Source of the DNA: a virus
Taxonomy: Duplodnaviria; Heunggongvirae; Uroviricota; Caudoviricetes
IMG/VR virus record: IMGVR_UViG_2861084961_000001
Strand: one strand, 5' to 3'
DNA: 64,000 nucleotides
Position 1 is the first letter of the stretch; each line of letters begins with the position of its first letter. The translations under genes were made by a program, and so were the position numbers. Below the pieces are notes generated by a model, which had not been told where the DNA came from, searched no databases, and was given only the letters and a program-made list of their open reading frames with translations. Positions 166-61,379 of the stretch are shown in pieces.

Positions 166-291
166 GTCCTTACCAAATCTATGTACCTATCATTAAACCT
201 TTACACCACAGCCGTAGGCATTTAGGCTATATCACATATAAGAAAACAAGTTGTTTCAGACGATAATTATATACGCAAAGGGAACTCTCCA

Positions 292-1319: not shown

Positions 1320-1323
1320 AAAT

Positions 1324-1356
1324 CATGCATTGGCGCGTACATTGCGCCAATGCATG
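1324..1356. terminator. Perfect palindrome catgcattggcgc-gtacat-tgcgccaatgcatg, bidirectional terminator candidate between convergent genes
   Basis: 12-13 bp perfect inverted repeat between convergent parB-like (+) and GIY-YIG (-) genes. Confidence 0.5.
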
Positions 1357-1371
1357 AGTACAATGTCAGTT

Positions 1372-2139
1372 TTATGCCGCGCTAACACTATGTTCAGTCC
1401 TAACCACTCCAACCTTCACAAAAGGGCTACCGTAGCTTGGTGGCTTCTTGATTAATTTGCCTACATACAGTTTTCTAATATGCTCATCGGCTATTCTGCC
1501 AACAAATTCATAACGTTTTGTGTCGGGGCCAAGAGCTATATCCCTTGTAAAGTACTGCTGAGAACCGGCTTTGACCCAGCATTCAATCTGATAAACTTCC
1601 ATTATCAGCCCACCATATGTAGCGTAGGCATATTTGAGATTCTCGTCTCTTGGAACCTTTGCCCATACGCCACGCGTTGCTTCATATAATGCCAGAGCGG
1701 ACATTCCTGACTTGTAGGTGCTGTTTAGCAGGAAGGCAAGACCAGCGTGCTCAGGAGCAATTTCAGTTTCCTCTTGCAGCACTAAGTGATGGTAGGCGTC
1801 CAGTGATATTCTGCCCATCATGGAACCACTTCCTCGTACCTTATTCGTAAGCTCTCCGACCCCCATAAGGTCGATGCATGTCGCCTCAACAAGTTTGGCT
1901 GTGGTTTCATCCATACCATGACGAAGAATATCTATGCCTAATTTTTTATTAGCCAAAAGTTCTTTGATCCGCATGGATTTGGGAGAGTCATCGGGATACT
2001 TGATGTGATCGAGACAACGAGTCGATTTGCCTTTTCCTATGTAAAACGGTCTTTTCATCTTGTCTTCTGTATCATAGAGACAGTAAACATAGTATTTAGC
2101 CTTATCCAATGATCTCGCGTATACCGATAAATCGTCCAT
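1372..2139 (-). CDS. GIY-YIG domain protein (homing-endonuclease-like)
   Basis: N-terminal YVYCLYD...PFYIGKGKSTRCLDHIKY matches GIY-YIG nuclease motif; 255 aa; opposite strand to surrounding operons. Confidence 0.55.
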   Translation of the reverse strand: MDDLSVYARSLDKAKYYVYCLYDTEDKMKRPFYIGKGKSTRCLDHIKYPDDSPKSMRIKELLANKKLGIDILRHGMDETTAKLVEATCIDLMGVGELTNKVRGSGSMMGRISLDAYHHLVLQEETEIAPEHAGLAFLLNSTYKSGMSALALYEATRGVWAKVPRDENLKYAYATYGGLIMEVYQIECWVKAGSQQYFTRDIALGPDTKRYEFVGRIADEHIRKLYVGKLIKKPPSYGSPFVKVGVVRTEHSVSAA

Positions 2140-2248
2140 TATTGCATCTCTTAGCTACTGACTAATGCGTTCTATTTTACACATAAGTTTTTAATCAATT
2201 TAACAGGCTCAAAGTGTAGAGCTTCTGGGCGTCTAAGACGACAAGTTA

Positions 2249-2306
2249 TGCCTGCTTCTGTATATATAAATAATAAGTAACTTATTAAATATATACGGAA
2301 GCAGGT
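2249..2306. repeat. Large hairpin cctgcttctgtatat...atatacggaagcagg (15 bp stem, AT-rich loop); near-identical copy at 48859..48912
   Basis: Inverted repeat visible in sequence; second copy 46 kb away. Confidence 0.6.
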
Positions 2307-2412
2307 CTTTTAAAAGACACCACCAGAACAACTCCCTTCCGTTTCCACTTCCAAAAACTGCCACCAGTCGCTATCATCCGCTTATTGTGATAAGTAAGTA
2401 ACTACCTACCAG

Positions 2413-3162
2413 GTGAGCCACATGAGCCAAATCTTTTTCGACACCATCGACAACGACCAGTACGACTTCATGACAGAGTGGAATACCGCTGTTATGGATA
2501 AGTGGGTTGCTGAAAACATTGGTTTGTCGCGCTGCAAAGACGAGGCTGAACTTTTCGATACGAAGTGGTTTGATTACCGCGACATGCATCCTCTTATGGC
2601 CACCTGTCTATTTACGGAGGCATACAAACGTCAGTACTCAAATATCATGCTGACGCACGGTCGTGAACACTTTGAAACAGCTCCGTTCACCACCGGGTTA
2701 AAACGCCTGCCTTATCAGGAGTTGTCGACTGCCAATAAAACGTCGCTATGGAAAGCACGCCAGTTTGCTGACCGCTATTGCTGCTCATACGACTACTTTA
2801 TCTCCACTGTTCTTTCCGCAGCTGCACGACGTCTGTGGGACAAGCTGCCTCGCCCACAACATTTGTGGCAGCCAGAACTGATTGAGATATTTGAAGAGAA
2901 ATTAGCCAGACGCGCAACAACCCGTCTGGATGACTCTCTGGTTAGCTTTAAGCATATGGGAGACATGCAGTTCAACCCGATCCAGGAAAGCTATTTTGAG
3001 TGGATTCTGGAGCGTTTACGCACCATCCCCCGCAGCAAGCGCATACGCGCAATTTTCTCCGCTATCTGGCTAATGGAAATTGTTCCAGAGCGCCTTATTT
3101 CCGCCCACTTTCCAGAAGAACTGGAAGAAGCACGGCGGTTTATTGATCCCCTATCTAATTAA
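2413..3162 (+). CDS. Hypothetical protein (249 aa)
   Basis: Long ORF in operon context upstream of helicase; no recognisable motif. Confidence 0.45.
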   Translation: MSHMSQIFFDTIDNDQYDFMTEWNTAVMDKWVAENIGLSRCKDEAELFDTKWFDYRDMHPLMATCLFTEAYKRQYSNIMLTHGREHFETAPFTTGLKRLPYQELSTANKTSLWKARQFADRYCCSYDYFISTVLSAAARRLWDKLPRPQHLWQPELIEIFEEKLARRATTRLDDSLVSFKHMGDMQFNPIQESYFEWILERLRTIPRSKRIRAIFSAIWLMEIVPERLISAHFPEELEEARRFIDPLSN

Positions 3163-3205
3163 CTAATACTAGAAAACAATTTGTTTAAAAAACAAAGGAA
3201 AGCAC

Positions 3206-4546
3206 ATGACCGAACTTTGCCATACAGGACGCGGGCTGTCCGAAGAGTTTGATGAAGATTTCCAGAACAGACTGACGGCATATTTTTGTCGTGATCACGA
3301 GTTTCTTACTCGTGCGGGAGATCTGGTTGTGCCTAGCCAATTTGCCAATGCGGCCAATGCCATATTGGTTAATATGGTTTCGGGCTATTACCGTATGTAC
3401 AAGAGCGCGCCCTCTTCATCTGCAATTCTGGATATGCTTAAGCGTGCGAAACGCGATAAGACTATCCGTGAGGAACTATTCGCCGATGTTGTTGCTGCGT
3501 TTAAGCGCATCCTTGCAGAAAAATTGTCCGATACCTCGTACATGGTTGACCAGGTATCAACCTTCGCAAAAAGCGTAGCGTTTGATGATGCTCTGATTAA
3601 GGCTGCTGAACTGAAAGAGAAGGGCGACTTTCAGGGGGCGATGGCAATCATGGCCAAGGTTCAGCAGATTGGATCGAACGAAGCGACCGGAATCTATGAC
3701 TACTACACCTCCGCAAGTGAGCGATTGAAAGCGCGTGAATATGAGGCTTCAGAGGAGTATGTACCAAACAGTATTACAACTGGACTCCCTCTTCTCGATA
3801 GGTTGCTGTACCAAAAAGGCTGGGCAAAGCGCGAAATGGTGCTCTTCATGGGGTTCGCTAAATCCGGTAAATCGACCGCAATGGGTGAGTTTTCCATAAA
3901 CGCAACGCTTGCTGGCTACAATGTTCTGTATCTCTCGCTGGAGGTTCACACCAACATTTTGTCCGACCGCTTTGATGCAAGATTGTCGGAGACGGAAATG
4001 TCCAAGCTGGTGGAACGGCGCGATGAAGTTCATCGTAAGTTGGCAGAGTTGGGAGCCACGAAGGGGATTGGTAGTTTGTGGGTTGTTGAGCGTCCGTCAG
4101 GAAGTATGTCACCGGCAGATCTGGACCGTATGCTTAACAGCATGAAAGCCAATGGCATGGTGCCTGACATGGTTGTTGTCGACTACGCAGATTTGATGCG
4201 TGCCAGTTATGACCTTCGTGATGATCGCGCCAATATTCGTAGTATCTACACCGATTTACGTGCTCTTTATGACAAACATAACGTTGCTGGGATCACGGCA
4301 TCGCAGACAAACCGTGAAGGTGGCGCGTCAGAAGTTGCCACAATGATGCACGCTGCCGACAACATCGAAAAAGTACGTATTGCTGACCTGGTAATAACGA
4401 TCAACAAAACCGAAGAAGAAGAAGCGAAAGGAGAGGCTCGTCTCTACTTTGCTGGTTCGCGTAACCAGCAGGGAGGGATCAGCATTCGCGTTAAACAAAA
4501 TCTCGAACAAATGCGCTTCATTGAGCGAATCTTAGACGTTACCTAA
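3206..4546 (+). CDS. DnaB-like replicative DNA helicase
   Basis: RecA-fold C-terminal domain with Walker A GFAKSGKST and Walker B VVVDYADLM; conserved upstream AAAGGAAAGCACATG start context. Confidence 0.8.
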   Translation: MTELCHTGRGLSEEFDEDFQNRLTAYFCRDHEFLTRAGDLVVPSQFANAANAILVNMVSGYYRMYKSAPSSSAILDMLKRAKRDKTIREELFADVVAAFKRILAEKLSDTSYMVDQVSTFAKSVAFDDALIKAAELKEKGDFQGAMAIMAKVQQIGSNEATGIYDYYTSASERLKAREYEASEEYVPNSITTGLPLLDRLLYQKGWAKREMVLFMGFAKSGKSTAMGEFSINATLAGYNVLYLSLEVHTNILSDRFDARLSETEMSKLVERRDEVHRKLAELGATKGIGSLWVVERPSGSMSPADLDRMLNSMKANGMVPDMVVVDYADLMRASYDLRDDRANIRSIYTDLRALYDKHNVAGITASQTNREGGASEVATMMHAADNIEKVRIADLVITINKTEEEEAKGEARLYFAGSRNQQGGISIRVKQNLEQMRFIERILDVT

Positions 4547-4627
4547 AAAATAAGCGTGGAGAACACCTCCACGCTTGATTCATTGGTGAAACAACTTTTC
4601 TTTTGCCAAACCACAAAAGAAAAACAC

Positions 4628-5809
4628 ATGAGCCTTTATGTTATATCAACATTTAGGTTGGTCACAATATTGCCTGTTAAAAGTGGAATTATCGTGAGCG
4701 AGCTGAAAGAGCTAATTACCGAATTAGATTTTGAACAATGGTTGGATACTGAAGGTATCGTTTATCGACGTGGAGGCGTGAGTGCTCGCGGTCGTGAAGT
4801 GAATATCAAGGAGTGTCCGGTATGCGGCAGCTCCAACTGGAAGGTATATTTCAATCTGACCAGCGGCGTCGGTAAATGCTTCGCTGGTGATCATCCCGAA
4901 GAGATTCAGTTCAATAAGCTGGTCTTCCTCAAGCACTACAGCGGTAAATCACGACGACAGTTCGAGGAATATGTGCAGAACGCTCTTCTTTCCCAGGGGT
5001 GGGCACCAAAGAAAGAAGAGATAGTGCTTGCAAGCACAGTCGAGTTAGAGGGACCACTTGCACTCCCTCGTCATTACGAACTTCCTATAGATGGCCGTCT
5101 TCCAGACTATCTGGTTGAACGAAACATATCGCCTGAAATGGCAAAGTATTTTGACCTACGATACTGCGTCGAAGGCAAGCACGCTTATGTTGACCCGTAT
5201 ACAGATCAGGTTAAAGGACAGATATTCGATATGCGAATACTGATACCGGTTTACGATCTGGATGGGGTAATGAAGACATTTCAGGGGCGAGACATTACCG
5301 GTGCAGCAGAACGTCGCTACCTCTTTCCTATGCAGCTTCCAGCTTCAGGTAAGTTTCTCTACAACGGCCATAATGCGCTCGGCAAACAGACTGTAGTTGT
5401 CTGTGAGGGGGCGTTCGATGTTATGGGGGTTAAACGAGCTATTTTTGATGAAGAAACATTACGTGATTACGTGGAACCGATAGGAACGTTCGGGATGCAT
5501 CTATCTGGCAACACCACTCAAGATGCAGAAGATCAGTTGGGCGCGTTCCTGACGCTCAAGGCACGTGGATTACGTAATGTGATCATGATGTGGGATAGTG
5601 AAAAGCAAGCTATACGCAACACTATGGCCGCGGCCAGGCGACTGACCAGTATTGGTCTTAATGTCAAAGTAGCGTGTTTGGGCGAGGAAGGACTCGACCC
5701 CGGCGATGCAACGCCAGAACAAATTATCAAAGCCTATTATCGGGCAAAACCGTATACCAAACAGTTGGAGTTGCAAAGCAAGGTTTTAGGCATTAAGGCT
5801 CTATCGTAA
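4628..5809 (+). CDS. DNA primase (zinc-finger + TOPRIM)
   Basis: CPVCGSS...GKCFAGDH zinc-binding motif; TOPRIM-like VVVCEGAFDVM; start chosen at ATG 4628 preceded by conserved AAAGAAAAACACATG rather than the longer ORF start 4556. Confidence 0.75.
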   Translation: MSLYVISTFRLVTILPVKSGIIVSELKELITELDFEQWLDTEGIVYRRGGVSARGREVNIKECPVCGSSNWKVYFNLTSGVGKCFAGDHPEEIQFNKLVFLKHYSGKSRRQFEEYVQNALLSQGWAPKKEEIVLASTVELEGPLALPRHYELPIDGRLPDYLVERNISPEMAKYFDLRYCVEGKHAYVDPYTDQVKGQIFDMRILIPVYDLDGVMKTFQGRDITGAAERRYLFPMQLPASGKFLYNGHNALGKQTVVVCEGAFDVMGVKRAIFDEETLRDYVEPIGTFGMHLSGNTTQDAEDQLGAFLTLKARGLRNVIMMWDSEKQAIRNTMAAARRLTSIGLNVKVACLGEEGLDPGDATPEQIIKAYYRAKPYTKQLELQSKVLGIKALS

Positions 5810-9335: not shown

Positions 9336-10111
9336 AAATACAATAATAAGTATTTACTTACTTATCTTTTATGTATAAGATGACTTTGTTTTCGTTGAGA
9401 CGCGACTGTTTGAACTTAAATACAAGTGCAAACGAAGAAGTCTATCTGGCAGTAGCCTAATAAGCCAAACACCAGCGAGGTCAGTTTCCAGCCTCGTTAC
9501 CGAAATGGGACACACTGAGCGAGTGTGATTGCAGAACGCAGGAGGGAACATTCATGTTCCCTCCGATGAAGTAACAGAATGGGCGGTTGGTATATTTTCA
9601 ACTCCATATGACTCCCGGATTCTTAGCCACTGACCGCCCATCCTGTTACGTCATTTTGTTCAATTATGTCGTTTATACTGGGTTAAAAAGCGGCGACGTA
9701 GCCCGGCTGGTATGGTTAGCCAGCACACAACGTTGAGGCCATTACATTTTTATCAATTCTAAGGTTCTATTCACAGAGATACCGGCGAGCGTTGATATGT
9801 AACATGTTGGGCAAACATTCAATCGGAGTAGTGGCCTCAACGTTGTGAAGACAGGATTGTTGTGTAGGTTTAACCACTGTTGCCATTGGTGCCTGTTTTC
9901 ACAACAAATGATTCCATACATCACATTGTATAAATAACAAAGTAGGTGCTGTCCTCAGAAACATCATCTACTTAAAGATTTAGCCTTCTATTGAGCGAAG
10001 TCGAAAGCGTCTGGCACTAACGTAAAGTGCAAGTAGCGGTGCGTTTCCTGGCAGAAACTAACACCGCCGCGATTGGCACTGTTGAGTAATAAATACTGTC
10101 AGTGCTGAATT

Positions 10112-10186
10112 GATGGTGTAGCTCAGCGGTAGAGCAGTTGGCTGTTAACCAACTGGTCGGTGGTTCGAATCCACCCACCATCGCCA
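10112..10186 (+). tRNA. tRNA-Asn (anticodon GTT)
   Basis: Cloverleaf by eye: acceptor gatggtg/caccatc, anticodon loop ctGTTaa, T-loop ggttcgaat, CCA end. Confidence 0.8.
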
Positions 10187-10191
10187 ATTTA

Positions 10192-10278
10192 GGGGAGTTA
10201 GTCCGTAGAGGTAGCGGTGTAGACTGTAAATCTACTGTCATGGCGACTCGGGTGGTTCGACTCCATCACTCCCCACCA
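10192..10278 (+). tRNA. tRNA-Tyr (anticodon GTA), type II with long variable arm
   Basis: Acceptor ggggagt/actcccc, anticodon loop ctGTAaa, T-loop ggttcgact, CCA end. Confidence 0.75.
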
Positions 10279-10282
10279 AATT

Positions 10283-10358
10283 GCCGGTTTAGCTCAGTTG
10301 GTAGAGCGCCTGCCTTGTAAGCAGGATGTCAGCGGTTCGAGTCCGTTAACCGGCACCA
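10283..10358 (+). tRNA. tRNA-Thr (anticodon TGT)
   Basis: Acceptor gccggtt/aaccggc, D-arm agctcagttggtagagc, anticodon stem cctgc/gcagg with loop ctTGTaa, CCA end. Confidence 0.75.
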
Positions 10359-10582
10359 ATACAACGATAAGATCATTACGGTTAATCGTCGTTCATGTGC
10401 ACAATGACTGGTCGAAAGGTAGTGATCTTACCGTTGTGGTGGATTCGCAGACTGATGCGATAGCTTTCTTGGATGTTAGGGAAATGCGGCCGCAAATCTT
10501 CCCTTTCGCGAGCGGTGATCGTCCGTAGTCCTAATTGGCTGCACCGTATGCCGGAGATTCAGTACCGGCCACCACAACGGCC

Positions 10583-10669: not shown

Positions 10670-10674
10670 GACAC

Positions 10675-10748
10675 AGCGTTGAGCGGTTTGGCCTTTTAAT
10701 CACCCAGATTAAGACTCCGCTAACATAAACCAGACCGCTCAACGCTGT
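10675..10748 (+). terminator. Long stem-loop (acagcgttgagcggtttgg ... ccagaccgctcaacgctgt) after tRNA cluster
   Basis: 19 bp inverted repeat directly after last tRNA. Confidence 0.45.
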
Positions 10749-10819
10749 GATAGACAATTACGGCAGACGTTCTTAACCATAGCTTGCTAACATCCTAGCA
10801 ACACTTTTTTCAGCGCAAA

Positions 10820-14328: not shown

Positions 14329-14426
14329 CCCCTCTTCTCCCTGCGCGAATGGCTTAGTTCCCTGTTCGCGCAGTGCTACATTAAACACACTAGTAAATAA
14401 TTTGTTTTCATAACAAAGGATTAGCC

Positions 14427-18043: not shown

Positions 18044-21000
18044 ATGAAGGCTCTGATGGTTCGAACTGACTTCTCTCTTGGGGAGTCGGCTCTAAAAGCA
18101 GAAAACGCGGTGAAGATTGCCAGAGAAGCTGGCTACACCGCTGTAATTTCGGCAGATAGCATGAATATTGCGAGTGTTATTCCACTACAACGTGCCGCTG
18201 GTGACGACATGGCGGTTATTTGTGGTGTGAAACTAAACATTGTTGATGATCCCACATACGAGCACCGGGCTAAACTTGCTAAAGAGTCTATGGGATGTAT
18301 GGAATCATTAGAGCGTGGGCGGAACTACTCCTTTACCGCTCTAATTAAAAATGAGCAGGGATATCGAGACATCTGCGAACTAATGACGGCGGCCAACACA
18401 CGAGAACAGTTCTACTTTGTACCGCGTCTCTCGCTCGAACAGTTGGTTTCTACATATGCCAAAGGCAACATCATCCTGCTAACTTCCGACATCGGTAGCG
18501 TGTTCCAACGCAACGATTTTGCAAAAATCATAAGCTCACTGATTACAGCGGGTGGAAAAGACAACTTCTATAGTGTGGTTTATCCGCACCCTACCCATTC
18601 TACGACCAGATTAACGTCCGGGCGATGAAAGTCGCCAGCGCACTGAAAATAGAGCCAGTAGCGTTCTATCCCGCTTATTACGAATCGATCGACGATGCAG
18701 ACATTAAAGACATTGCGCACATGGTTACGAACAACATCAAAATCGACCAGCCGCATCGTCTGCGTATCCCCACCAGCGAGATAACGCCGTCAATTGTCGC
18801 CGCCATCTCCTTGAGGCGCTGAAAGCCTTCTCCGTTCGCATGGATGTGCCGGTAACAGCTGCAATGGCCTCAACAACGCAGGATACCATTATCGATGCCT
18901 GCACATGGCGCTGGCATGAATTGCCACCAGCACTGCCAAAGATGGCAGACGACGAGCCTGCAACTCTGATGAAACTGGCCGTTGCTGGGCTGCGTAAACG
19001 TCTTACCACAAAAGAGTTTGGCTACACACCACCGGCTTCTGAGAACAGGGTTTATGTTGAGCGACTTAAGTACGAAATGGATACGCTGACTCGCCTGGGA
19101 TTCTGTGGTTACTTCCTGATGGTGCGCGATCTGATGAATCATAGTCGTGAAACTGGCATTCCCGTTGGGCCTGGTCGTGGTTCCTCTGCTGGCTCTTTGG
19201 TGGCATGGTGCATAGGCATAACCAACGTCGACCCAATCCGTCACGGTCTTCTGTTTGAACGTTTCATCAACCCTGAGCGTCTCGACTTGCCGGATGCGGA
19301 TTTGGACTTCAGCCAGGCACGTCGCCATGAAGTGATCGAGTATCTGAATGAACGCTACGGCGAAGATTACGTTGCGGGTATTCCGAACTTCACATATCTG
19401 GGCGCAGCCTCTGCACTACGTGACACCGCTCGTATTTATGGTGTGGAGTCCGCAGATATGGCGGTATCAAAGAACTGAAGAACGTCGAGGATGATAGCCT
19501 TCCATTGGAAGAACTGCGCGAACAACTGGCAAGTCTCGACAAATACGCAACAAAATATCCTGATGCATTCAATGCAGCCTGCAAGTTACAAAGCCTTATG
19601 CGTGGCTTTGGTAGACATGCGGCAGGGATGATCGTAGCAGGTGTTCCTCTGACAGAACGTACACCGGTTGAACGACGTGGTGACGCGCGTTGTATCGCAT
19701 TTGACAAGCGTTACTGCGAGGCTATGGGCCTAATTAAGCTGGACGTGCTTGGCCTGGCAACTCTCGATTTGCTCGATAGTGCAAAACGCTACATAAAAGA
19801 GAACACAGGTGAAGATATCAATCTTGATGCCATTTCTCTTGAAGATCGCAAGGTGCTGGATGGTTTTGCTGCTGGGTACACTCAAGGTGTTTTCCAGCTT
19901 GAATCAGGCCCAATGCGCAAGCTGCTTAAAGATTTAGGTGGTGGAATTGAGCCAATGAGCTTTAAAACGGTCGTCGCTACGACTGCGCTCTTCCGGCCGG
20001 GGCCAATTCAGTCAGGCATGTTGGATGACTATGTTTCTGTAGCCAAAGGCTTTATGAAGCCGGAATCATTACACCCCGTTCTTGATGAACTTACCGCAGA
20101 AACAAATGGCGTGATTCTCTATCAGGAACAGACGATGAACGCGACTCGATTGCTTGCTGGCTTCACAATGGCTGAAGCTGACGGTGTTCGTAAAGCGATC
20201 GGCAAAAAGGACATGGAAAAATGAAGAGCATGGGCGAGAAGTTCATCGTTCAGGCTCAAGCTGGCTGGATAGACGTTGAGCTGGAAGATGGCACTACACA
20301 GCGCATTCACCGTGCGGAACATTTTAAATGCGAAGACGGAACTCTGAAAACTGTCGAAGAGGCACTTGAGTACGGCGCAAAACTACCTATAAACGCAGTA
20401 CGCGTTACAGCGTCACATCCAGGGCTATCAGAGATGAAAGCGAAGGAGATCTGGACCGCATTCGAAAAAAATGGAGCCTACCAGTTCAACAAATCACACT
20501 CTGTTGCTTACTCCTTAATCAGTTATCAATCTATGTGGTTGAAAACTCATTATCCCGCAGAGTTTTCGCTGCTGCTCTCACTATTCTTGGCGAAGATAAA
20601 CACCAGGGGCTGGTTAAAGATGCGCTGACCTATGGTATTCGCGTATTGCCACCAGACGTTAACGTGTCATCTAACCGAATCGAGATCCGCACGCTTGAAG
20701 ATGGCAGCCAGGTGCTGTATGCGCCCTTCTCTGCTGTGAAGGGGTGTTCTGAGAATGGCTGCCAGGCCATCATGAGAGCGCGAGAAAGGGTTGGCGGCAA
20801 ATTCGAGTCACTGGCGCAATTCGAAGAAGCTGTCGAGAAACGTGCCTGTAATAGTCGAGTGCGCGAATCACTGCAAAAAGTAGGTGCGTTTGCGTCCATA
20901 GAGCCAGGTAGTCTGCCAGCAACTGATCCAGAGCGTCTCCGCGACCAAGCAGAATTGATGGGAAACCTTGTCATAGATGCAGTTAAAGCCTCACGTCCGT

Positions 21001-26778: not shown

Positions 26779-26829
26779 CTCGTTATTATCACACACAAGA
26801 AAACAATTTGTTAAAAGGTTAAGTTAATT

Positions 26830-27654
26830 ATGCCCAACCACATTACAAACGAAATCCGAGTCATAGGTGGTACAAATAAACAACGCTTAGATTTCATACG
26901 TGCCATAACTAACAAAAAAGGTCTAATTGACTTTAATACCATTTGCAGACGTCCGAAAAGTATAGAAATGGAAGAAAACAATCATATCAGGCGCATGGCC
27001 TCTGCAATGGCGGGCGAAACAGTTTACGACTACATGTTCGGTGAATTAAAGACTCCAGAACAGGTCGAATTAGCTATGCGTGAATCTGGAATGACACGCA
27101 AGGAAATTCGCAAAATCAAAGAGCAGGCTCTTATGCGGCTTGAGAATTATCGTCGCTATGGCTATTACTCATGGTTTGACTGGTCGCGAGCTAATTGGGG
27201 AACAAAATGGAATGCCTACAACATCGAAATGCCCGTAAAACGTATCCCTACACGTATTAAGTACGGCCATAATTTCCGCCATACACACGTTCGAGCATAT
27301 GCAAAACGAATCTATAAAAAACGTCTTGCAAGACATGCCGCAACTGGTGGTGAGTTGGTGATTCGCTTTGAAACAGCCTGGTCTATGCCAAAACCAATTT
27401 ATCAAGCGATGGCTAGAAAGTTCCCGCACCTTGAATTTGTAATACGTTATGCAGACGAAGACTTCGGCAATAACTGCGGATTCATTTTACTTCGCAACGG
27501 CAAATGGGAATATGACTACATTGCACCGGCGAATAACGAACAATCGTCAGAAGAAAAAATCAAATGGCGCAAGTTCGCCTTTGAGTTATGTTGTCCTGGT
27601 ATTACTCCACAAGAATACGGTCTAAATGAAGAATACGAATACGCCGGATATTAA
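26830..27654 (+). CDS. Hypothetical protein (274 aa)
   Basis: ORF preceded by AGAAAACAATTTGTT motif; Trp-rich segment YSWFDWSRANWGTKWNAY. Confidence 0.45.
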   Translation: MPNHITNEIRVIGGTNKQRLDFIRAITNKKGLIDFNTICRRPKSIEMEENNHIRRMASAMAGETVYDYMFGELKTPEQVELAMRESGMTRKEIRKIKEQALMRLENYRRYGYYSWFDWSRANWGTKWNAYNIEMPVKRIPTRIKYGHNFRHTHVRAYAKRIYKKRLARHAATGGELVIRFETAWSMPKPIYQAMARKFPHLEFVIRYADEDFGNNCGFILLRNGKWEYDYIAPANNEQSSEEKIKWRKFAFELCCPGITPQEYGLNEEYEYAGY

Positions 27655-31018: not shown

Positions 31019-31230
31019 TGGCATTAACACTAGCAGGTCTGGAAATCGAGAAAACAAGCGGATACTGGCGTGCTAAGGGTTTCAAGCAGCCTGGCGTTCT
31101 TGAGCGTCTGGAGCGTGAAGATGGGTATATCGTCCACCAGCGGCGTGAATGGCGCATGTACGATCCAGAAACAGGAAAACTGACTACAAAAGCCGGAACA
31201 CTTTGGGGTCTGTTAAAGAAAATACACTAA
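31018..31230 (+). CDS. Hypothetical protein (70 aa)
   Basis: ORF start-overlapping upstream stop; followed by hairpin actgcggctcgttccgcagt. Confidence 0.35.
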   Translation: MALTLAGLEIEKTSGYWRAKGFKQPGVLERLEREDGYIVHQRREWRMYDPETGKLTTKAGTLWGLLKKIH

Positions 31231-31278
31231 ATGCAAACTGACTGCGGCTCGTTCCGCAGTCATATTTCATAGTCGTCA

Positions 31279-31809
31279 CCGCTGACAGCATACACAATCA
31301 ACTGCCGCTGATAGCATATCGAGAGTCTATCTCACCGCTCACAGCATACTTTACTCGATTTTTACCGCTGACAGCATACTTAAGGCATTGCATGAATAAT
31401 GTGTACCGGTATGGGTATAACCAGAACAAAATTACCGCTGGCAGCATACGAAGGTCTGACATATGCCATTAATTACCGCTGATAGCATATCCAAACAAAA
31501 TTCCTCAATAAAACACCGCTGACAGCATACGTTCTATCAGGGAGCAGCAGGCAATAAATGCCTTTCACTACAAGTAATCAGCGCAATGGCAATAGAATGT
31601 TAGTGAGCGCAAACCTATATGGAATGCACTCTTCGAGGTTAGTAACCACTGGGGAGGTATAAAAGAGCATTGAGTGGTGATAGATGATTTACCGCTCACG
31701 GCATACGTTCATCTCACTATACCGCTGGTAGCATATCTTTAACCGTTCACAGCATACTTTTCAGAAAAATAGCCGCTGATAGCATACATTTCACCGCTGA
31801 CAGCATATC
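31279..31809. repeat. Iteron array: 12 copies of ~15-19 bp repeat CCGCTGACAGCATAC (variants) in two groups (7 + 5), downstream of repA
   Basis: Counted by eye at approx 31279, 31305, 31335, 31366, 31435, 31474, 31516, 31691, 31722, 31742, 31773, 31793. Confidence 0.85.
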
Positions 31810-32901
31810 AAAGCAGTTTGAGACTATTGGAAAGGATCTCAATCATCTTGATATTTTCAGGCGTCAAATTCTGTGAAAGTTCGGTTATCTTATTGATAAT
31901 GTTCTGTTTGGCATCAATTTCCCCGGCTTTCTCATCTGGTTTTTTGGGTTCGATGTCTTCAGGTTTTGGCGGTGCGACTTTGAGTTTTGGATTGCGGCTG
32001 TGAATCTGGATATAGATCGACCGCCCTCGCTTAATCTCGCTGTATTCGAGATAACCCAAATCTTGGAGAGCTTTTAAGCCGTTACGTATAGTCTGATTCT
32101 GCGAGCTGACATTCCTGCTACTCAAATTGAGTCGCGCACGCAATCGAGCAAGCGATACCGGCGCAGGCTTGGTTGGAAGACTTTCGATGAAGGTGTACAG
32201 AGCCTGTGCTGTTTCTTTGCGTGGTAGCTTATTGATAACCTTTAACTGTAAAAGAACCTTATGGTCAAAGCGATATAGTTCGGCCAGCTTCGGTTCTGCA
32301 TAGAACACCACCGTATCTTTCTGCTCGTTGTAGTCCACGCTATTGATGAGGTGCACCATCAGAAGCGAGATCTTGTTAGAGCCGTCGACATTCTTTTCTT
32401 CATACGTTCTCTGGAAAGACAGAGTGGTACGCATAATCTTCAAAAGACTGTTTGTAAGCCGGTCGCGGAGTGTTTTGCGGATCTGTGACGATGGATAGCC
32501 ACAAAACTTCGCAAATTTCGTGATGCTTAACTCGACACGACCGTTAGGTTCGCCGTATTCTGCCAGCGAACGCACAACGCCCACCCACGTTTTGAAATCA
32601 TGATCCATGTCGAGACGAGGACCGGTTATCTTGATATCGGAATAGCCTTCAGAACGGGCTACTTCGAGCTGAACAAGCTCCTTTGAAGCATCGATCTCAT
32701 TTGGCTTGTTACGCTTGCTGTATTTTGTCCCTTGAGCGTTGGCACGAACAACCCCAGCCGCATCAACGCAATTGGTTGGACTGTATTGTTGCTATTAGGG
32801 ACAAGTTCCCCTGTGTACAATTCAAGGGAACCTTCTTCAAAGTTGTCGAGATTATCTTCTACTTCTTTGTTATTTTTACCTTTTTTATTTTTTGTGGACA
32901 T
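31808..32901 (-). CDS. repA: Replication initiator RepA (iteron-binding), probable frame break near 32650-32760
   Basis: Minus-strand ORF 31808..32608 flanked on both sides by iterons; N-terminal Lys-rich segment MSTKNKKGKNNK starting at 32901 is in -1-related frame; larger ORF start at 33021 lies inside iterons and is rejected. Confidence 0.7.
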
Positions 32902-32922
32902 GTGGACACCTTTGTCATTCAA

Positions 32923-33023
32923 CCGCTGACAGCATACTTGATTTGCCGCTGGCAGCATACCAAAAACAGTTGGCAGCATACGGCGAACCGTTGACAGACT
33001 ATCAATTACCGCTGGCAGCATAC
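32923..33023. repeat. Upstream iteron group (4-5 copies) overlapping repA promoter
   Basis: aaccgctgacagcatac, tgccgctggcagcatac, agttggcagcatac, ccgttgacagactat, ccgctggcagcatac. Confidence 0.8.
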
Positions 33024-33059
33024 ATGAACATGGCTTCAGACCAGTCGTGGCGCGGCTTA

Positions 33060-41043: not shown

Positions 41044-41147
41044 CATATGGTGGGGGGTATCCCACCTTCTCTTTGATTTGTAAGCCTTGTTTAAACAAAT
41101 AAGATAACAACTTGTTTAAACACATCAAAAAGCAAAAGGAAAAACAC

Positions 41148-47088: not shown

Positions 47089-47248
47089 AGCAAAAGCCTA
47101 CTTTAAAGAGAGTTTAAAGTAGGCTTTCTTTTAAAGAACAGTCGCCTTTCAATCATTTCCTGCCTGTATTTAATACTTTTCCGCCTGATAGGTTTAGTCA
47201 AAATATAGCCATCGAAACGCAAATGTAACCAAACAGAAGGAGACTTAC

Positions 47249-48057
47249 ATGAGTTCGGTTGAAAATGTAATGACAAATGATGATCTGGACGAACTGACAG
47301 CTATGTTGCAATCACTTGATGAACCGGTAAAAAAAGCTGCACAGGTTGAGAATACTGATGATATTGACGATCTGCTTCTAGGCCTCGATGCTGGCGTAGC
47401 CATGAGTTCTGATGATGTTGCCGAAGAACTGTTCAATGAAGAAAAAGCAGGTGATTTTAGCTCCGCTTTAAATGAGTTGGAGTTAGCGCATGAGCCTATA
47501 AACGTAATTAACGCTGAAAGTGGTGAAGCTGCCGAAAATGAGCCAGAACAGTTGGGGATCATTGAGGTTGAAGAGTGTGTTGAGGTTAATGATGAATTAA
47601 AAGTTCAACAGTCAAATGATAGCAATACAAATAAAAAGCTCGTGCTGCAAGAGGTCCTCGTTTTACTTTAAGTGATAAAGATGATTCGTTTTTCAATAAA
47701 GCAGGCTTAGAAAAAGATATTTTCTTAGACGCTTATGAAAACGCGCCTGTCAAAGCGAAGGATAAGATATTAAACCTTCTTAATTGGTTTAGCGGAGGTC
47801 CAGATATTAGTGTTTACACGGTAATTTCCATGAGACACCTTCTCACAGAAAAGAAGGCTACAAGTAATAGTATTAAGATTGCTTTAATGAGCAATCCAGA
47901 AAAACCGTATCCGCTTAACACTGCGTCAACTCAGGCTGGGCAAATGATGGCTGTATTTCCAGCTACAGGAATTGCCGTTAGAGACGGTGGAAATCTAACA
48001 TTGAACGAAGAATCACCGATCGTTAAGAAGTTTGTCGCGGAGTACACTATTGGATGA
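47249..48057 (+). CDS. Highly acidic N-terminal protein (DNA-mimic-like anti-restriction candidate), frame break near 47650
   Basis: N-terminal 130 aa rich in D/E; C-terminal part continues in -1 frame; sits immediately upstream of orphan methyltransferase. Confidence 0.4.
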
Positions 48058-48227: not shown

Positions 48228-48833
48228 TTGAGAAAGAAGATGATTGCAGCCGAAAAAATCAAACAGCGAAAGCGCGACAACTCTCTTCGTGACCTCTGGA
48301 GAACACCTGATTGGCTGTTTTCTGCCATTCAACGTTATCTTGGGGTGACATTTGATGTTGACGTTGCCTGCAACAAGGACAATGCAAAGCTGCCTAATTT
48401 CATAGGCGTTGAGCGTGATGCTTTGAAATCTGAATGGGGACAGCCAGGTACAATTGCCTTCCTCAATCCACCCTACTCCAAAATCTCCCCCTGGATTGAT
48501 GCTGCTATACGTGAGCAGGCTCGCGGAGTTACAACAGTGATGCTAATTCCTCAATCCCTCGATACAAAGTGGTATGAGCGTGCAACAGAGTATGCGAATG
48601 AGACGATTATTCTGTCTGGTGGCCGCGTAGCGTTTGTCGAGCCTGACGTCAATTTGGGTCAGGTAGAAGTAAACATCAACCCCGGTGGCAGTATGCTCGT
48701 TGTTTTTCGAGGATTCTGTCAGGACGCTGGGCACTCTATAAGCAAGATCCCTTTGGACGTAATGAAAAGTCTGGGAGGGTATGATCCTGCGAATGTGGTC
48801 AGGAAAAAAAGACCATCAAAGAAGGCTGCTTAG
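48228..48833 (+). CDS. Phage-type DNA N6-adenine methyltransferase (orphan)
   Basis: Catalytic motif FLNPPYS; ~200 aa; no adjacent restriction endonuclease. Confidence 0.7.
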   Translation: MRKKMIAAEKIKQRKRDNSLRDLWRTPDWLFSAIQRYLGVTFDVDVACNKDNAKLPNFIGVERDALKSEWGQPGTIAFLNPPYSKISPWIDAAIREQARGVTTVMLIPQSLDTKWYERATEYANETIILSGGRVAFVEPDVNLGQVEVNINPGGSMLVVFRGFCQDAGHSISKIPLDVMKSLGGYDPANVVRKKRPSKKAA

Positions 48834-48858
48834 TTTGTTCTGGCGAGTGTAATTAACC

Positions 48859-48912
48859 TGCTTCTGTATATAAATAACTACATATTAATTATTAATATAC
48901 GGAAGCAGGCTG
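48859..48912. repeat. Large hairpin cctgcttctgtatat...atatacggaagcagg, second copy of element at 2249..2306
   Basis: Near-identical stems in both copies. Confidence 0.6.
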
Positions 48913-49018
48913 TTTTGTATCAGAGACTCCCAGACCTGAACACCACTACAGAATCCACTAGAACCCCTTCTCAGACGCTTTAAAATCGATTTTATGAACC
49001 ACTTTAAGGAAAACTAAC

Positions 49019-49249
49019 ATGTCATACCCGACCAATGTTGTTGCGCTCGTAGAGAGCGATTTTCTGGCTAAGGCTCGTGAAATGATGAAAGATCGCGAGC
49101 AGGCTTTCAACTTGTACGAATGGGCAATTAAGTGCTTGCATCTTGGGGAGCATCGCGAACTTGTTGAACAGCTTTTAGGTGAGTTGATCAACGAGGTGTT
49201 TGCCTTGAATGTTCAACTACATGGTCGAGAAAATAACCAATCGAAATGA
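49019..49249 (+). CDS. Hypothetical protein (76 aa)
   Basis: ORF with RBS AAGGAAAACTAACATG. Confidence 0.4.
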   Translation: MSYPTNVVALVESDFLAKAREMMKDREQAFNLYEWAIKCLHLGEHRELVEQLLGELINEVFALNVQLHGRENNQSK

Positions 49250-51262: not shown

Positions 51263-51355
51263 CGGCTGTTAGTGCATATGCATTGACCATCTCTGCGTAA
51301 GCAATTTATGTAATTAGAAAACAACTTGTTTTGACAAATAATAAAAGGAAAACAC

Positions 51356-51780: not shown

Positions 51781-52076
51781 TGCTTGAGAGATTCCGGCTT
51801 GTGATCGTCATTGCTCTTCTGGTGATGGCGGTGTTGGTGGATTTACGGGAAAGATGATGTCTGTCATTTCTGATGGCGTCCTCATTGGTTTGGCGATCTA
51901 CTTCGCTTATCCGTTAGTTCGTAAAGCAAAGTGTTAATGACAAGGGCCAAATGGCCCTTGTGTTTCGTTGACCGAAATAGAGAGTTTGCACCTTTACGTT
52001 TAGCTTGCTCCCCTTTTATGCCACATCACAATAAAGCCAATAAGAAAACAACTTGTTTAAGCATTAGGAAAAACAC

Positions 52077-52643: not shown

Positions 52644-52784
52644 TACTGCACCAGTCGACAGGGGGCGAAAGCCCCCATTTTTACGCCTTAAATCTGCTGT
52701 AACGCCTATGAATGCAGCTTTTATGCCTTTTCAAGTTTGCGATAATTACACCAATAAGAAAACAAATTATTTAATGGTGTAATT

Positions 52785-55616: not shown

Positions 55617-55735
55617 GCGCTACAAATCCTTCTGCATGAATAAATAAAGGCCATAACTTATGGCCTTAAATAAATTGTTTTCTACCTTTTCTTATTTGTG
55701 AAAATAACCACAACTAGAAAACAACGGAGTTAAGA

Positions 55736-61024: not shown

Positions 61025-61049
61025 CAGAGCCGCAAACTCTGTTTCCTTT

Positions 61050-61082
61050 TAAAAAGCCCAGCCTAGTCAACTGGGCTTTTTA
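61050..61082. terminator. Hairpin aaaaagcccagcctagtcaactgggcttttt (bidirectional terminator candidate), preceded by second hairpin ggaacagag...ctctgtttcc
   Basis: GC stem flanked by A-run and T-run. Confidence 0.6.
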
Positions 61083-61379
61083 ATGTCTATTTTTAACCCA
61101 ATGAACCTTCAATACCGCAACATCAGTGTCTTGCGAATTAAGATAGTGTGTATAGGTTATACATGCAAGTGCATAACTCTGTGGATAACTCAGGAAGGAA
61201 AAAGTAGCTTCCGCGCAATTTAGGCCAGACAAGGCTTTCGCAAAAATCAACGGAGAGAAAAAAATTTGTTAAAAATAACGTTTGTTGGAATTGTATATAT
61301 TTATGCCTTTCAATAGTTAGCATCTTATTAACATCTTTTTTAAGAGATAGAGTTCAAAAATATATAGCTTCAACATATA

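What the first reader, a model, noticed from the sequence alone, without database searches (positions are those of the whole stretch)
2249..2306. Two near-identical large hairpins (15 bp stem, AT-rich loop) at 2249-2306 and 48859-48912
Both copies read cctgcttctgtatat...atatacggaagcagg with different AT-rich loops. One lies in a divergent promoter region and the other immediately after the orphan Dam methyltransferase. Conservation of the stem at two distant loci suggests a functional element: a bidirectional terminator, a protein-binding site or an RNA processing site.
Basis: seen in the sequence. Interest (0 to 1): 0.4.

Follow-up and report, generated by a model that had tools for sequence, protein, structure and literature searches.

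The report
Conserved module-boundary terminator hairpins, phage-plasmid
The two look-alike hairpins are real and belong to a three-copy family of long palindromes that sits at the same three gene-block boundaries in all SSU5/pHCM2-type phage-plasmids, most likely acting as transcription stops that keep lytic genes silent, although their unusually strict sequence conservation is not yet explained.

Summary
Near-identical palindromes lie at 2251-2305 and 48857-48909; arm matches are 4 observed versus 0.00 expected. The "AT-rich loop" is mostly paired, so each is a 24-27 bp hairpin (RNA -30 and -26 kcal/mol). The window is an SSU5/pHCM2-like E. coli phage-plasmid. The element is a family found in 829 plasmid records. 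Complete replicons carry three syntenic copies: c1 before the replication operon, c2 after the Dam methyltransferase, and c3 before the terminase genes (outside this window). Copies evolve in concert, and degenerate outer inverted boxes (GGTCTGGGAG/CTCCCAGACC) flank each one. Copies c1 and c2 have a T-rich tail on the gene-sense side only, followed by a C-rich, G-poor leader. In published RNA-seq of the relative Cyrano (PMC9928086), expression drops 10- to 230-fold across the 194-nt gap that holds c1. The best reading is strong sense-direction terminators or insulators between transcription blocks. "Bidirectional" is not supported. Unexplained: 12 of 14 lower-stem pairs are invariant across genera while ordinary terminators turn over, and c3 lacks terminator features. 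A DNA-level protein-recognised site therefore remains a live rival. No prior description was found. Moderate interest.

The parts
2251..2305 (+). Copy c1: inner palindromic hairpin. The lower stem is CCTGCTTCTGTATATAT/ATATATACGGAAGCAGG with one T.G; the upper AT stem is 7 bp with a 3-nt loop.
   Evidence: The covariance model scores 106.6 bits on the + strand.
2223..2234 (+). c1 left outer box TTCTGGGCGTCT, a degenerate form of the family's GGTCTGGGAG box. It pairs with 2315-2329 in the composite fold.
2306..2311 (+). c1 T-rich tail TCTTTT immediately 3' of the hairpin on the gene-sense strand.
   Evidence: A T-rich tail is kept in all 13 non-redundant c1 variants.
2315..2329 (+). c1 right outer box AGACACCACCAGAAC.
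   Evidence: 2 matches versus 0.34 expected.
2306..2412 (+). Leader between c1 and the replication operon. It is C-rich and G-poor (34 C, 12 G), which is a rut-like composition. It contains the conserved promoter-like TTCCAA (2349-2354)-N17-TATCAT (2372-2377).
   Evidence: It is 82% identical to pHCM2. The promoter-like hexamers were read by eye and are conserved in Klebsiella, Citrobacter and the hairpin-less lineage L234.
48857..48909 (+). Copy c2: inner palindromic hairpin with the same lower stem and the same T.G. The upper AT-rich stem has a different sequence but still pairs.
   Evidence: The covariance model scores 78.3 bits on the + strand.
48837..48850 (+). c2 left outer box GTTCTGGCGAGTGT. 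It starts 4 nt after the methyltransferase stop codon (48831-48833).
48910..48918 (+). c2 T-rich tail CTGTTTTGT.
48922..48936 (+). c2 right outer box AGAGACTCCCAGACC.
48910..49018 (+). Leader between c2 and the next gene (49019-49249). It is C-rich and G-poor (30 C, 14 G).
1372..2139 (-). Context: GIY-YIG-domain cargo gene in the variable slot to the left of c1. Homology with some relatives breaks 3-10 nt before the hairpin.
   Evidence: PF22945, E 5.5e-07.
2422..3162 (+). Context: first gene of the replication operon (phrog_2500, function unknown), followed by the DnaB-like helicase (3206-4546) and the primase (4556-5809).
48228..48833 (+). Context: phage Dam-type N6-adenine methyltransferase that ends just before c2.
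   Evidence: PF05869, E 2.3e-38.

Best explanation
The two hairpins are copies c1 and c2 of a three-member family of long palindromes. Each has a GC-clamped base and an AT-rich core. The family marks the junctions between the three large co-directional gene blocks of SSU5/pHCM2-type phage-plasmids: structural/lysis/partition, DNA replication and metabolism, and miscellaneous early genes.

Proposed mechanism. When RNA polymerase reads through from the upstream block, the 24-27 bp hairpin forms in the transcript right after the upstream stop codon. In c1 and c2 a U-rich tail follows directly, so the transcript is released as at an intrinsic terminator. Any read-through RNA then exposes about 100 nt of untranslated, C-rich and G-poor leader, which is suited to Rho loading as a back-up stop. 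The downstream operon starts from its own promoter, located after the hairpin. The net effect is insulation: genes expressed in the plasmid-prophage state (partition and cargo genes) do not leak into the lytic replication genes.

The copies are kept alike by gene conversion between sites. Because they are 50-nt identities, they also lie at at least one mosaic junction, the cargo slot to the left of c1.

Shown: the family, its synteny, the structure, the tail asymmetry, the concerted evolution, and the expression drop across c1 in a relative. Inferred: that the drop occurs at the hairpin itself, the Rho back-up, the promoter position, and that c2 behaves like c1.
For: (1) The structure is very stable on the sense strand.
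(2) Position: c2 begins 23 nt after the methyltransferase stop codon. In Cyrano, Klebsiella and Citrobacter a co-directional cargo gene ends immediately upstream of c1, 24 nt upstream in Cyrano.
(3) The tail is T-rich on the sense side only in c1 and c2: mean 5.4 T of 9, against 3.9 (c1) and 3.2 (c2) on the antisense side. This holds across divergent lineages even though the tail sequence differs.
(4) The leaders after c1 and c2 have 22-23 C versus 6-8 G per 60 nt. The window average is 21.7% C and 23.9% G.
(5) Experiment in a relative (PMC9928086, S1 Table). In ten LF82 transcriptome samples, CYRAN_28/29/30 (parA, parB-like, cargo) read log2 5.2-10.8. CYRAN_31, which is 194 nt downstream on the same strand with c1 in between (Cyrano 31159-31211), reads 2.3-4.2, where the floor is 2.32.
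(6) The promoter-like TTCCAA-N17-TAT(C/G)AT lies downstream of c1. It is conserved even in a lineage that lacks the hairpin.
(7) All 118 classified copies fall into three syntenic boundary sites, and there are three per complete replicon.
(8) Concerted evolution: c1 and c3 are identical over 55 nt in E. coli. The T.G state is shared by all copies in 11 of the 13 concordant genomes out of 18 multi-copy genomes; pHCM2 is all C-G and one metagenome contig is all T-G.
Against: The hairpin is atypical for an intrinsic terminator: the stem is 24-27 bp and the upper half is AT-rich. The simple terminator scan flags neither copy.

In this window c1 has no co-directional gene ending in front of it, because the neighbouring gene is divergent, so there is little obvious transcription to stop. 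pHCM2 is the same.

Copy c3 has no T-tract and no C-rich leader. In Cyrano it shows only about a 1-2 log2 drop, so it does not fit the same mechanism.

A terminator needs pairing, not sequence. Yet 12 of 14 lower-stem pairs are invariant across genera, while the window is 78% identical to pHCM2 overall and other terminator-like hairpins are unalignable or diverged. The symmetric outer boxes are also not required for termination.

The RNA-seq evidence is at gene level and from a relative. It cannot place the 3' end at the hairpin or separate termination from RNA decay. Both genes flanking c2 are silent in that data set, so c2 is uninformative.
Confidence: 0.55

Rival explanations
1. DNA-level cis site. 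The palindrome, possibly extruded as a cruciform thanks to its easily melted (TA)n-rich centre, together with its outer inverted boxes, is recognised in a sequence-specific way by a phage-plasmid or host protein. Possible roles are origins of lytic replication, dispersed centromere-like or condensation sites, or a module-level regulator site. Any termination would then be incidental.
For: The arms are nearly invariant across genera, whereas ordinary terminators turn over. Symmetry extends to about 100 bp through the outer boxes, with 73% pairing and a G-C/U-A double change. In contig 2880329822 the c3 boxes changed in a compensatory way while c1 and c2 kept the standard boxes. c3 lacks terminator features. 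c1 persists in divergent promoter regions. c1 lies next to the helicase/primase module and c3 next to the terminase genes. G.T-type and C.A-type mismatches occur in roughly equal numbers of independent lineages on the sense strand, so there is no clear RNA-strand signature. The DNA hairpins are stable.
Against: Arm-to-arm spacing varies (element length 49-57 nt), which a rigid dimer on B-DNA would not tolerate. No candidate binding protein was identified: the small gene next to c3 and the phrog_2500 protein have no Pfam domain. A related Klebsiella lineage keeps the replication operon and its leader but has no hairpin at the c1 site. Three directly repeated recombination or cleavage sites would fragment the genome. 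This reading does not explain the sense-side T-tract and C-rich leaders, or the Cyrano expression drop.
Confidence: 0.2
2. RNA processing or stability element. The perfect duplex of 20 bp or more is cut by host RNase III, or it acts as a 3' exonuclease block. This would uncouple the fate of upstream and downstream messages, as at T7 RNase III sites. Alternatively it works as in lambda sib/tI, where the extended stem through the outer boxes forms only in read-through transcripts.
For: A 24-27 bp nearly perfect RNA helix exceeds the roughly 20-bp length that E. coli RNase III needs (established knowledge). The outer boxes can extend the helix, but only if transcription passes the T-tract. The copies lie in intergenic positions inside long co-directional gene arrays. 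A multi-copy conserved hairpin family resembles the T7 early-region sites.
Against: There are no cleavage data. Sense-strand mismatches include C.A as often as G.U when independent lineages are counted. Processing alone would not give a 100-fold drop in the level of the downstream gene unless the downstream fragment is also destabilised. No Rfam family matches.
Confidence: 0.12
3. A selfish or neutral palindromic repeat, of MITE/REP type or a recombination relic, with no function for the phage-plasmid.
For: It is a repeated imperfect palindrome with terminal inverted boxes. Copies are homogenised by conversion. One lineage lacks the c1 copy without obvious consequence.
Against: There are only three copies, always at the same three syntenic sites, in Escherichia, Salmonella, Yersinia, Klebsiella, Citrobacter, Kluyvera and Buttiauxella. 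There are no extra or ectopic copies. Nothing resembling a target-site duplication or a cognate transposase was seen. The stem is more conserved than the genome average.
Confidence: 0.05

Closest known systems
Intrinsic (Rho-independent) terminators used as insulators between prophage-expressed and lytic operons
   Same: A stable hairpin directly after a stop codon, a U-rich tail on the sense side (c1, c2), and a sharp fall in expression of the next co-directional gene (Cyrano c1).
   Different: The stem is two to three times longer than usual and has an AT-rich upper half. The same sequence is used at three sites and kept almost invariant across genera. Symmetric outer boxes are present. c3 has no U-tract.
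PeSL cassettes of T4-like phages (composite promoter-early/stem-loop motifs; PMC2839356, PMC4122927)
   Same: A repeated, conserved intergenic regulatory hairpin motif within one phage genome. It coincides with an insertion/replacement junction (the cargo slot left of c1), and the copies can recombine.
   Different: No conserved early promoter lies inside the repeated unit. There are only three copies at fixed syntenic sites rather than dozens in hyperplastic regions. Only c1 adjoins a variable region. The phage group is different.
Phage T7 RNase III processing sites, and the lambda sib/tI retroregulator
   Same: A family of look-alike long hairpins between genes of co-directional operons. In lambda, a terminator hairpin becomes an RNase III substrate when read-through adds the distal arm, which parallels the outer boxes here.
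   Different: The T7 sites carry an internal loop and are cleaved rather than terminating. No cleavage evidence exists here, and there is no sequence similarity.
Dispersed palindromic cis sites of plasmid prophages and viruses (N15 dispersed centromere repeats; HSV oriS/oriL palindromes with an AT-rich centre). Recalled from general knowledge, not tested.
   Same: A few copies of a conserved palindrome scattered around a plasmid-prophage genome. An AT-rich centre is flanked by conserved inverted arms.
   Different: No binding protein or origin or centromere activity is known here. Arm spacing is variable, and the T-tract and expression data point to an RNA-level role.

Membership tests
Intrinsic terminator | A stable stem-loop with a G+C-rich base in the transcript | tested here: met
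   RNA MFE is -30.2 and -26.2 kcal/mol (z -7.6 and -5.4). The base of the stem is CCUGCUUC/GAAGCAGG. The stem length of 24-27 bp is atypically long.
Intrinsic terminator | A U-rich tract immediately 3' of the stem | tested here: met
   c1 has TCTTTT and c2 has CTGTTTTGT. Across non-redundant c1 and c2 variants the mean is 5.4 T of 9, against 3.2-3.9 on the antisense side. The feature is NOT met for family member c3 (3.0 of 9). The generic scanner flags neither copy.
Intrinsic terminator | It lies downstream of a co-directional gene | tested here: inconclusive
   c2: yes, 23 nt after the methyltransferase stop codon. c1 in this window: no, the neighbouring gene is divergent. c1 in Cyrano, Klebsiella and Citrobacter: yes.
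Intrinsic terminator | Transcripts end there in vivo | tested here: inconclusive
   Gene-level RNA-seq in the relative Cyrano shows a 10- to 230-fold drop across the 194-nt gap that holds c1. 3' ends were not mapped. c2 is uninformative because both flanking genes are silent. The window's own element was not assayed.
Bidirectional terminator | A U-tract on both strands (A-tract 5' and T-tract 3') | tested here: not met
   Antisense-side tails are not T-rich in c1 or c2. The genes around c2 are co-directional.
PeSL (T4-type promoter-early stem-loop cassette) | The repeated unit contains a conserved early sigma-70 promoter fused to the stem-loop | tested here: not met
   No sigma-70-like site lies in or next to the repeated unit. 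The promoter-like TTCCAA-N17-TATCAT is specific to the c1 leader and is not part of the repeat.
PeSL (T4-type promoter-early stem-loop cassette) | Many copies that flank indels or replacements in hyperplastic regions | tested here: not met
   There are three copies at fixed sites. Only c1 adjoins a variable cargo slot.
RNase III processing site | About 20 bp or more of double-stranded RNA | tested here: met
   A 24-27 bp near-perfect helix.
RNase III processing site | Cleavage by RNase III | not testable with these tools
   This needs a comparison of rnc+ and rnc- transcripts, or in-vitro cleavage.
Dimeric-repressor operator on B-DNA | Fixed spacing of the two half-sites | tested here: not met
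   Element length is 49-57 nt, so arm-to-arm spacing varies by up to 8 bp, partly through (TA)n slippage.
REP/MITE-type mobile palindrome | Many copies at non-syntenic sites, with target duplications and a cognate transposase | tested here: not met
   All 118 classified copies fall into three syntenic classes. The genome-wide scan of species representatives finds the element only in phage-plasmid-bearing Enterobacterales (Kluyvera, Buttiauxella, Yersinia; 6 of 9 stretches), the other 3 looking like chance or contamination. No transposase was seen nearby.
Curated RNA families (Rfam 15) | A match at or above the gathering score | tested here: not met
   Only tRNAs pass in the window. The hairpins give only sub-threshold noise against miRNA-precursor models.

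The most novel reading that the evidence does not exclude
The three palindromes are not merely terminators. They would be cruciform-capable DNA sites that a phage-plasmid-specific factor reads in a sequence-specific way to coordinate the three genome modules. Examples are multiple lytic replication origins with an AT-rich unwinding centre between inverted recognition arms, or dispersed segregation or compaction sites. The transcription stop would then be a secondary use of the same structure. This would explain the invariant arms, the symmetric outer boxes, the atypical c3 copy and the persistence of c1 in a divergent promoter region.
Probability: 0.15. Interest if true: 0.65.

Novelty: new variant of a known kind. 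Interest (0 to 1): 0.35.

Why it matters
SSU5/pHCM2/pMT1-type phage-plasmids are common in clinical Enterobacterales: 829 PLSDB records carry this element. They include the Salmonella Typhi and Yersinia pestis plasmids. How these elements keep about 100 kb of lytic genes silent while expressing maintenance and cargo genes is largely unknown.

A conserved three-site boundary element gives concrete handles for study. The sites can be deleted or swapped to test insulation, induction and copy-number control. They offer a sequence marker for typing this group, and one of them borders the cargo (defence-gene) hotspot.

If the strict sequence conservation reflects a dedicated binding factor, the sites would also point to an unrecognised layer of genome-wide control. 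If they are simply strong terminators kept alike by gene conversion, the finding is a tidy but ordinary piece of annotation.

Tried and rejected
1. Rfam search at gathering score and at permissive E-values. Nothing matched except generic long-hairpin noise.

2. Searching IMG/VR by the outer boxes alone (GGTCTGGG-N65-95-CCCAGACC). Most hits were chance matches in GC-rich contigs. Only a few were family members, and all had the same inner hairpin.

3. A strand signature for RNA function. The raw counts look striking: on the sense strand T.G 67 versus C.A 4. They collapse to roughly 3-4 versus 3 independent lineages once near-identical genomes and copy-to-copy conversion are considered. I do not use this as evidence.

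4. Co-variation of all three sites in distant relatives, as a test for a trans factor. The 55%-identity Klebsiella lineage lacks the element at c1. Aeromonas and Acinetobacter relatives have unrelated, unrepeated hairpins there. The test could therefore not be made.

5. LexA box. The arms contain CTGTATAT and ATATACAG halves, but they are 35-43 bp apart and there is no complete CTGT-N8-ACAG box. Rejected. IHF, matS and SlmA consensus sequences were compared by eye and do not match.

6. cos or pac site. Only c3 is near the terminase genes, and the identical cores at c1 and c2 argue against cleavage. Records that end about 110 nt after the hairpin simply start at terS by convention.

7. Site-specific recombination site. 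Three direct copies would delete genome segments. Rejected on logic, not tested.

8. Pfam on the small genes next to c3 and on phrog_2500, looking for a candidate binding protein. No domains were found.

9. Literature searches for a prior description, using SSU5, pHCM2, pMT1, palindrome, stem-loop and inverted repeat. None was found in the held library.

Full report
**1. The observation**

Reading the window directly shows the two elements at 2251-2305 (55 nt) and 48857-48909 (53 nt), which is 2-3 nt off the coordinates given. Both have the arms CCTGCTTCTGTATAT and ATATACGGAAGCAGG. The reverse complement of the right arm differs from the left arm at one base. Position 9 is therefore a T.G: a G.U wobble in + strand RNA and a C.A mismatch on the other strand.

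With at most one mismatch, the 15-mer arm occurs four times in the window, against 0.00 expected in 100 dinucleotide-preserving shuffles. Both copies fold far better than shuffles:
- as RNA, -30.2 and -26.2 kcal/mol, z -7.6 and -5.4;
- as DNA, -15.2 and -13.8 kcal/mol, z -9.0 and -8.7.

In copy 1, 17 bp are followed by a further 7 bp and a 3-nt loop. In copy 2, 24-nt arms are 88% complementary around 5 nt. These are near-complete palindromes, not 15-bp stems with 25-nt loops.

The stated context is correct. Copy 1 lies between a - strand gene (1372-2139) and a + strand gene (2422-3162). Copy 2 begins 23 nt after the stop codon of a methyltransferase (48228-48833) that matches Pfam PF05869 Dam at E 2.3e-38.

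**2. What the window is**

The region is 98% identical to Escherichia phages CMS-2020a and PhiR41_1, which are 108-kb SSU5-like phage-plasmids. Copy 1 sits between the partition genes plus one cargo gene on its left and an operon on its right. That operon consists of a phrog_2500 protein, a DnaB-like helicase and a primase.

**3. The hairpin is a family**

A pattern scan of IMG/VR found 94 stretches. A blastn search of PLSDB found 829 plasmid records and 3,149 places. The hosts were Klebsiella, Escherichia, Enterobacter, Yersinia (pMT1), Salmonella (pHCM2), Citrobacter and others, and nearly all records were non-mobilizable replicons of about 100-120 kb. Phage SSU5 itself and several Klebsiella phage isolates carry the element.

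In one-genome-per-species representatives the core pattern occurs only in Kluyvera, Buttiauxella and Yersinia pestis. Three further hits have long spacers and look like chance or contamination.

I anchored every fetched copy on its neighbouring genes with tblastn. Of 124 candidate sites, 118 fall into three syntenic classes:
- c1, upstream of the phrog_2500/helicase/primase operon (32 copies);
- c2, downstream of the Dam methyltransferase (32 copies);
- c3, upstream of the small and large terminase genes (54 copies).

The six unclassified candidates are truncated loci or chance matches. Complete replicons have exactly these three: E. coli NZ_CP022167 at 39091, 97403 and 73241, and S. Typhi pHCM2 at 27406, 82524 and 57759.

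A covariance model built from 29 non-redundant elements finds two copies in the window, three in each complete replicon, and nothing else. The window therefore holds c1 and c2, and c3 lies outside it. The three sites split the circle into three large, mostly co-directional gene blocks.

**4. Anatomy beyond the hairpin**

Alignment of the flanks shows an outer inverted repeat about 8-16 nt from each side of the hairpin. It is clearest in c3 (GGTCTGGGAG ... CTCCCAGACC). It is degenerate in c1 (TTCTGGGCGTCT / AGACACCACCAGAAC) and in c2 (GTTCTGGCGAGTGT / AGAGACTCCCAGACC).

Counted on 29 non-redundant sequences, the outer helix pairs in 73% of cells. The whole structure pairs in only 26-45% of cells when the 3' partners are slid. 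One pair shows G-C in 11 sequences and U-A in 8. The overall covariation score is reached by 11 of 500 shuffles, so support is moderate.

In one metagenomic genome the c3 boxes have changed on both sides in a compensatory way (CAACTGGAG / ACTCAGTT), while c1 and c2 of the same contig keep the standard boxes. A local change of this kind fits pairing better than a change in a protein's specificity.

The lower stem is almost invariant. Twelve of 14 pairs are identical in all 29 sequences. Position 9 varies as C-G 11, U.G 10, U-A 5 and C.A 3. The AT-rich upper stem differs between classes and lineages, partly through (TA)n length changes, but it stays self-complementary. Element length ranges from 49 to 57 nt.

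**5. Concerted evolution**

In E. coli, c1 and c3 are identical over all 55 nt, loop included. In 13 of 18 genomes with two or more fetched copies, every copy has the same state at position 9. This includes the non-Watson-Crick T.G shared by c1, c2 and c3 in the E. coli clade, and C-G at all three sites in pHCM2. Five genomes are mixed. Gene conversion between sites tens of kilobases apart is the simplest explanation.

The same fact undermines an apparent strand signal. On the gene-sense strand the raw counts are T.G 67 and C.A 4. These reduce to about 3-4 versus 3 independent lineages. I do not count this as evidence for an RNA-level role.

**6. Features that point to transcription termination**

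- In c1 and c2 the nine bases after the hairpin on the sense strand are T-rich: mean 5.4 T, for example TCTTTTAAA, TCTTTTTCT, CTGTTTTGT and CTTTTTAAG. The antisense-side tails are not T-rich (3.9 and 3.2). The feature persists across lineages whose tail sequences differ.
- The following 60 nt are C-rich and G-poor: 23.4 C versus 5.8 G after c1, and 21.9 versus 8.2 after c2. The window contains 21.7% C and 23.9% G. By established knowledge, this is the composition expected of a Rho loading site.
- The composite begins within a few bases of the upstream stop codon wherever a co-directional gene precedes it. Examples are c2 here, c3 in relatives, and c1 in Cyrano, Klebsiella and Citrobacter.
- Downstream of c1 there is a promoter-like TTCCAA-N17-TATCAT (2349-2377). 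It is conserved in Klebsiella, Citrobacter and even in a lineage without the hairpin. This suggests that the replication operon starts after the hairpin, not before it. The hexamers were read by eye; the generic scan reports no sigma-70 site here.

**7. Experimental evidence from the literature**

[quoted passage not shown] Its phrog_2500 homologue is 99% identical to the one in this window. Table S1 of PMC9928086 lists per-gene log2 expression in ten transcriptome samples:

| Gene | Role and position | log2 expression |
|---|---|---|
| CYRAN_28 | parA | 5.2-10.1 |
| CYRAN_29 | parB-like | 6.3-10.8 |
| CYRAN_30 | cargo gene, ends at 31134 | 5.7-10.4 |
| CYRAN_31 | starts at 31328, same strand | 2.3-4.2 (floor 2.32) |

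Hairpin c1 lies at 31159-31211. That is 24 nt after the CYRAN_30 stop codon and 116 nt before the CYRAN_31 start codon. Expression therefore falls 10- to 230-fold across a 194-nt gap whose main feature is c1.

At c2 both neighbouring genes are near the floor, so the data say nothing. At c3 the drop from CYRAN_123 to terS is only about 1-2 log2 when the upstream gene is on. In relatives a separate GC-rich hairpin with a T-run also lies just before terS.

These data are at gene level and come from a relative. They show a boundary but do not place a mapped 3' end.

**8. What does not fit a plain terminator**

- The stem is two to three times longer than usual, and the generic scan flags neither copy.
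- In this window and in pHCM2, c1 lies in a divergent intergenic region with no co-directional gene ending in front of it.
- c3 lacks both the T-tract and the C-rich leader.
- The sequence is conserved well beyond what pairing requires. The window and pHCM2 are 78.3% identical over 45.9 kb, and only 19.5% of aligned 15-mers reach 14/15 identity. Yet the four arms score 13, 14, 14 and 15 of 15. Other terminator-like hairpins in the window (1323-1357, 61049-61083, 47093-47127) are unalignable or reduced to 12/35.

Conversion between copies explains likeness within a genome but not conservation across genera. This leaves room for a sequence-specific reader, either protein or RNase, or for a DNA-level function. 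Against a rigid dimeric DNA-binding protein, the arm spacing varies by up to 8 bp. A hairpin or cruciform form would make that variation irrelevant.

A related Klebsiella lineage (55% identity in phrog_2500) keeps the leader and the operon but has no hairpin at the c1 site. The element is therefore dispensable there.

**9. Mosaic junction**

Homology between this window and Cyrano or CP054387 starts at query position 442-449, which is window position 2241-2248 and thus 3-10 nt before the hairpin. The slot to the left of c1 holds different cargo in different genomes:
- a GIY-YIG-domain gene here (PF22945);
- a hypothetical gene in Cyrano;
- a P-loop NTPase in Klebsiella;
- DUF2971 in Citrobacter and pHCM2.

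This resembles the PeSL cassettes of T4-like phages, which sit at indel junctions (PMC2839356, PMC4122927). However, the junction may simply mark where essential conserved sequence begins, and c2 and c3 do not adjoin variable regions.

**10. Conclusion**

The finding is real, and it is the visible part of a three-copy, family-wide boundary element. The best-supported mechanism for c1 and c2 is a strong sense-direction transcription stop. It would consist of a hairpin plus U-tail, probably backed by Rho on the C-rich leader. Its role would be to insulate the lytic replication block and the following block from upstream transcription. I give this a confidence of about 0.55.

A DNA-level, protein-recognised and cruciform-capable site (about 0.2) and an RNase III or stability element (about 0.12) remain open and are not mutually exclusive with termination. 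A selfish repeat is unlikely (about 0.05).

I found no prior description in the searchable literature and no Rfam family. I classify the element as a new variant of a known kind, a repeated and concertedly evolving terminator-type palindrome, of moderate interest.

Noticed in passing
window 242-256, 3172-3186, 14393-14409, 26799-26813, 41103-41117, 51317-51333, 52044-52060, 52758-52772, 55668-55682, 61257-61271: A separate dispersed dyad motif, GAAAACAAnTTGTTT, gives 15 matches at about 10 sites against 1.3 expected. It often lies 15-50 nt upstream of a start codon, for example before parA (292) and the helicase (3206). Two copies sit in the c3-to-terS leader of relatives. It is a candidate operator or start-associated element of the phage-plasmid.
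   Followed up: partly
window 31270-31810 and 32916-33025: About 20 iterons with the core ACCGCTGACAGCATAC lie in two clusters about 1.1 kb apart. This is the layout expected of an iteron-type plasmid origin around a repA gene.
   Followed up: no
window 10112-10355, with inverted repeats at 9566-9654, 10356-10442 and 10672-10749: Three tRNA genes lie in a row. Three long inverted repeats (20-24-nt arms, 38-45-nt spacers) lie in the surrounding 9.5-10.8 kb region, two of them just downstream of the tRNA genes; their function is unknown.
   Followed up: no
window 47249-47671 and 47830-48057: Two adjacent ORFs match the N-terminal and C-terminal halves of one PHROG family (phrog_5235, 274 positions). 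The gene is intact (810 nt) in plasmid NZ_CP022167. It is probably a disrupted gene in this genome, or a sequencing frameshift.
   Followed up: partly
window 1320-2250: The slot between the partition operon and hairpin c1 is a cargo hotspot. It holds a GIY-YIG nuclease-domain gene here, and unrelated genes (a hypothetical gene, a P-loop NTPase, DUF2971) in Cyrano, Klebsiella, Citrobacter and pHCM2.
   Followed up: partly
window 2306-2412 and 48910-49018: The untranslated leaders after both hairpins are strongly C-rich and G-poor (34 C/12 G and 30 C/14 G). This is a composition typical of Rho loading sites.
   Followed up: partly
window 1323-1357: A perfect 14-bp GC-rich hairpin lies between the end of the partition operon and the convergent GIY-YIG gene, with a T-run on the - strand. 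It is an ordinary terminator that, unlike the family hairpins, cannot be aligned with pHCM2.
   Followed up: partly
L098 23130-23165 (- strand; E. coli plasmid NZ_CP022167) and L224 about 20140-20175 (pMT1): A canonical GC-rich hairpin with a T-run lies just upstream of the terS ribosome-binding site, downstream of c3 and the two dyad motifs. The layout is reminiscent of a late-operon leader controlled by antitermination.
   Followed up: no
window 2258-2265 and 2291-2298 (and the equivalents in copy 2): The arms contain halves of the LexA-box consensus (CTGTATAT, and ATATACAG in T-A variants), but they are 35-43 bp apart and no full box is present. Cyrano is SOS-inducible and encodes a LexA-like S24 peptidase. 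This is probably a coincidence.
   Followed up: partly
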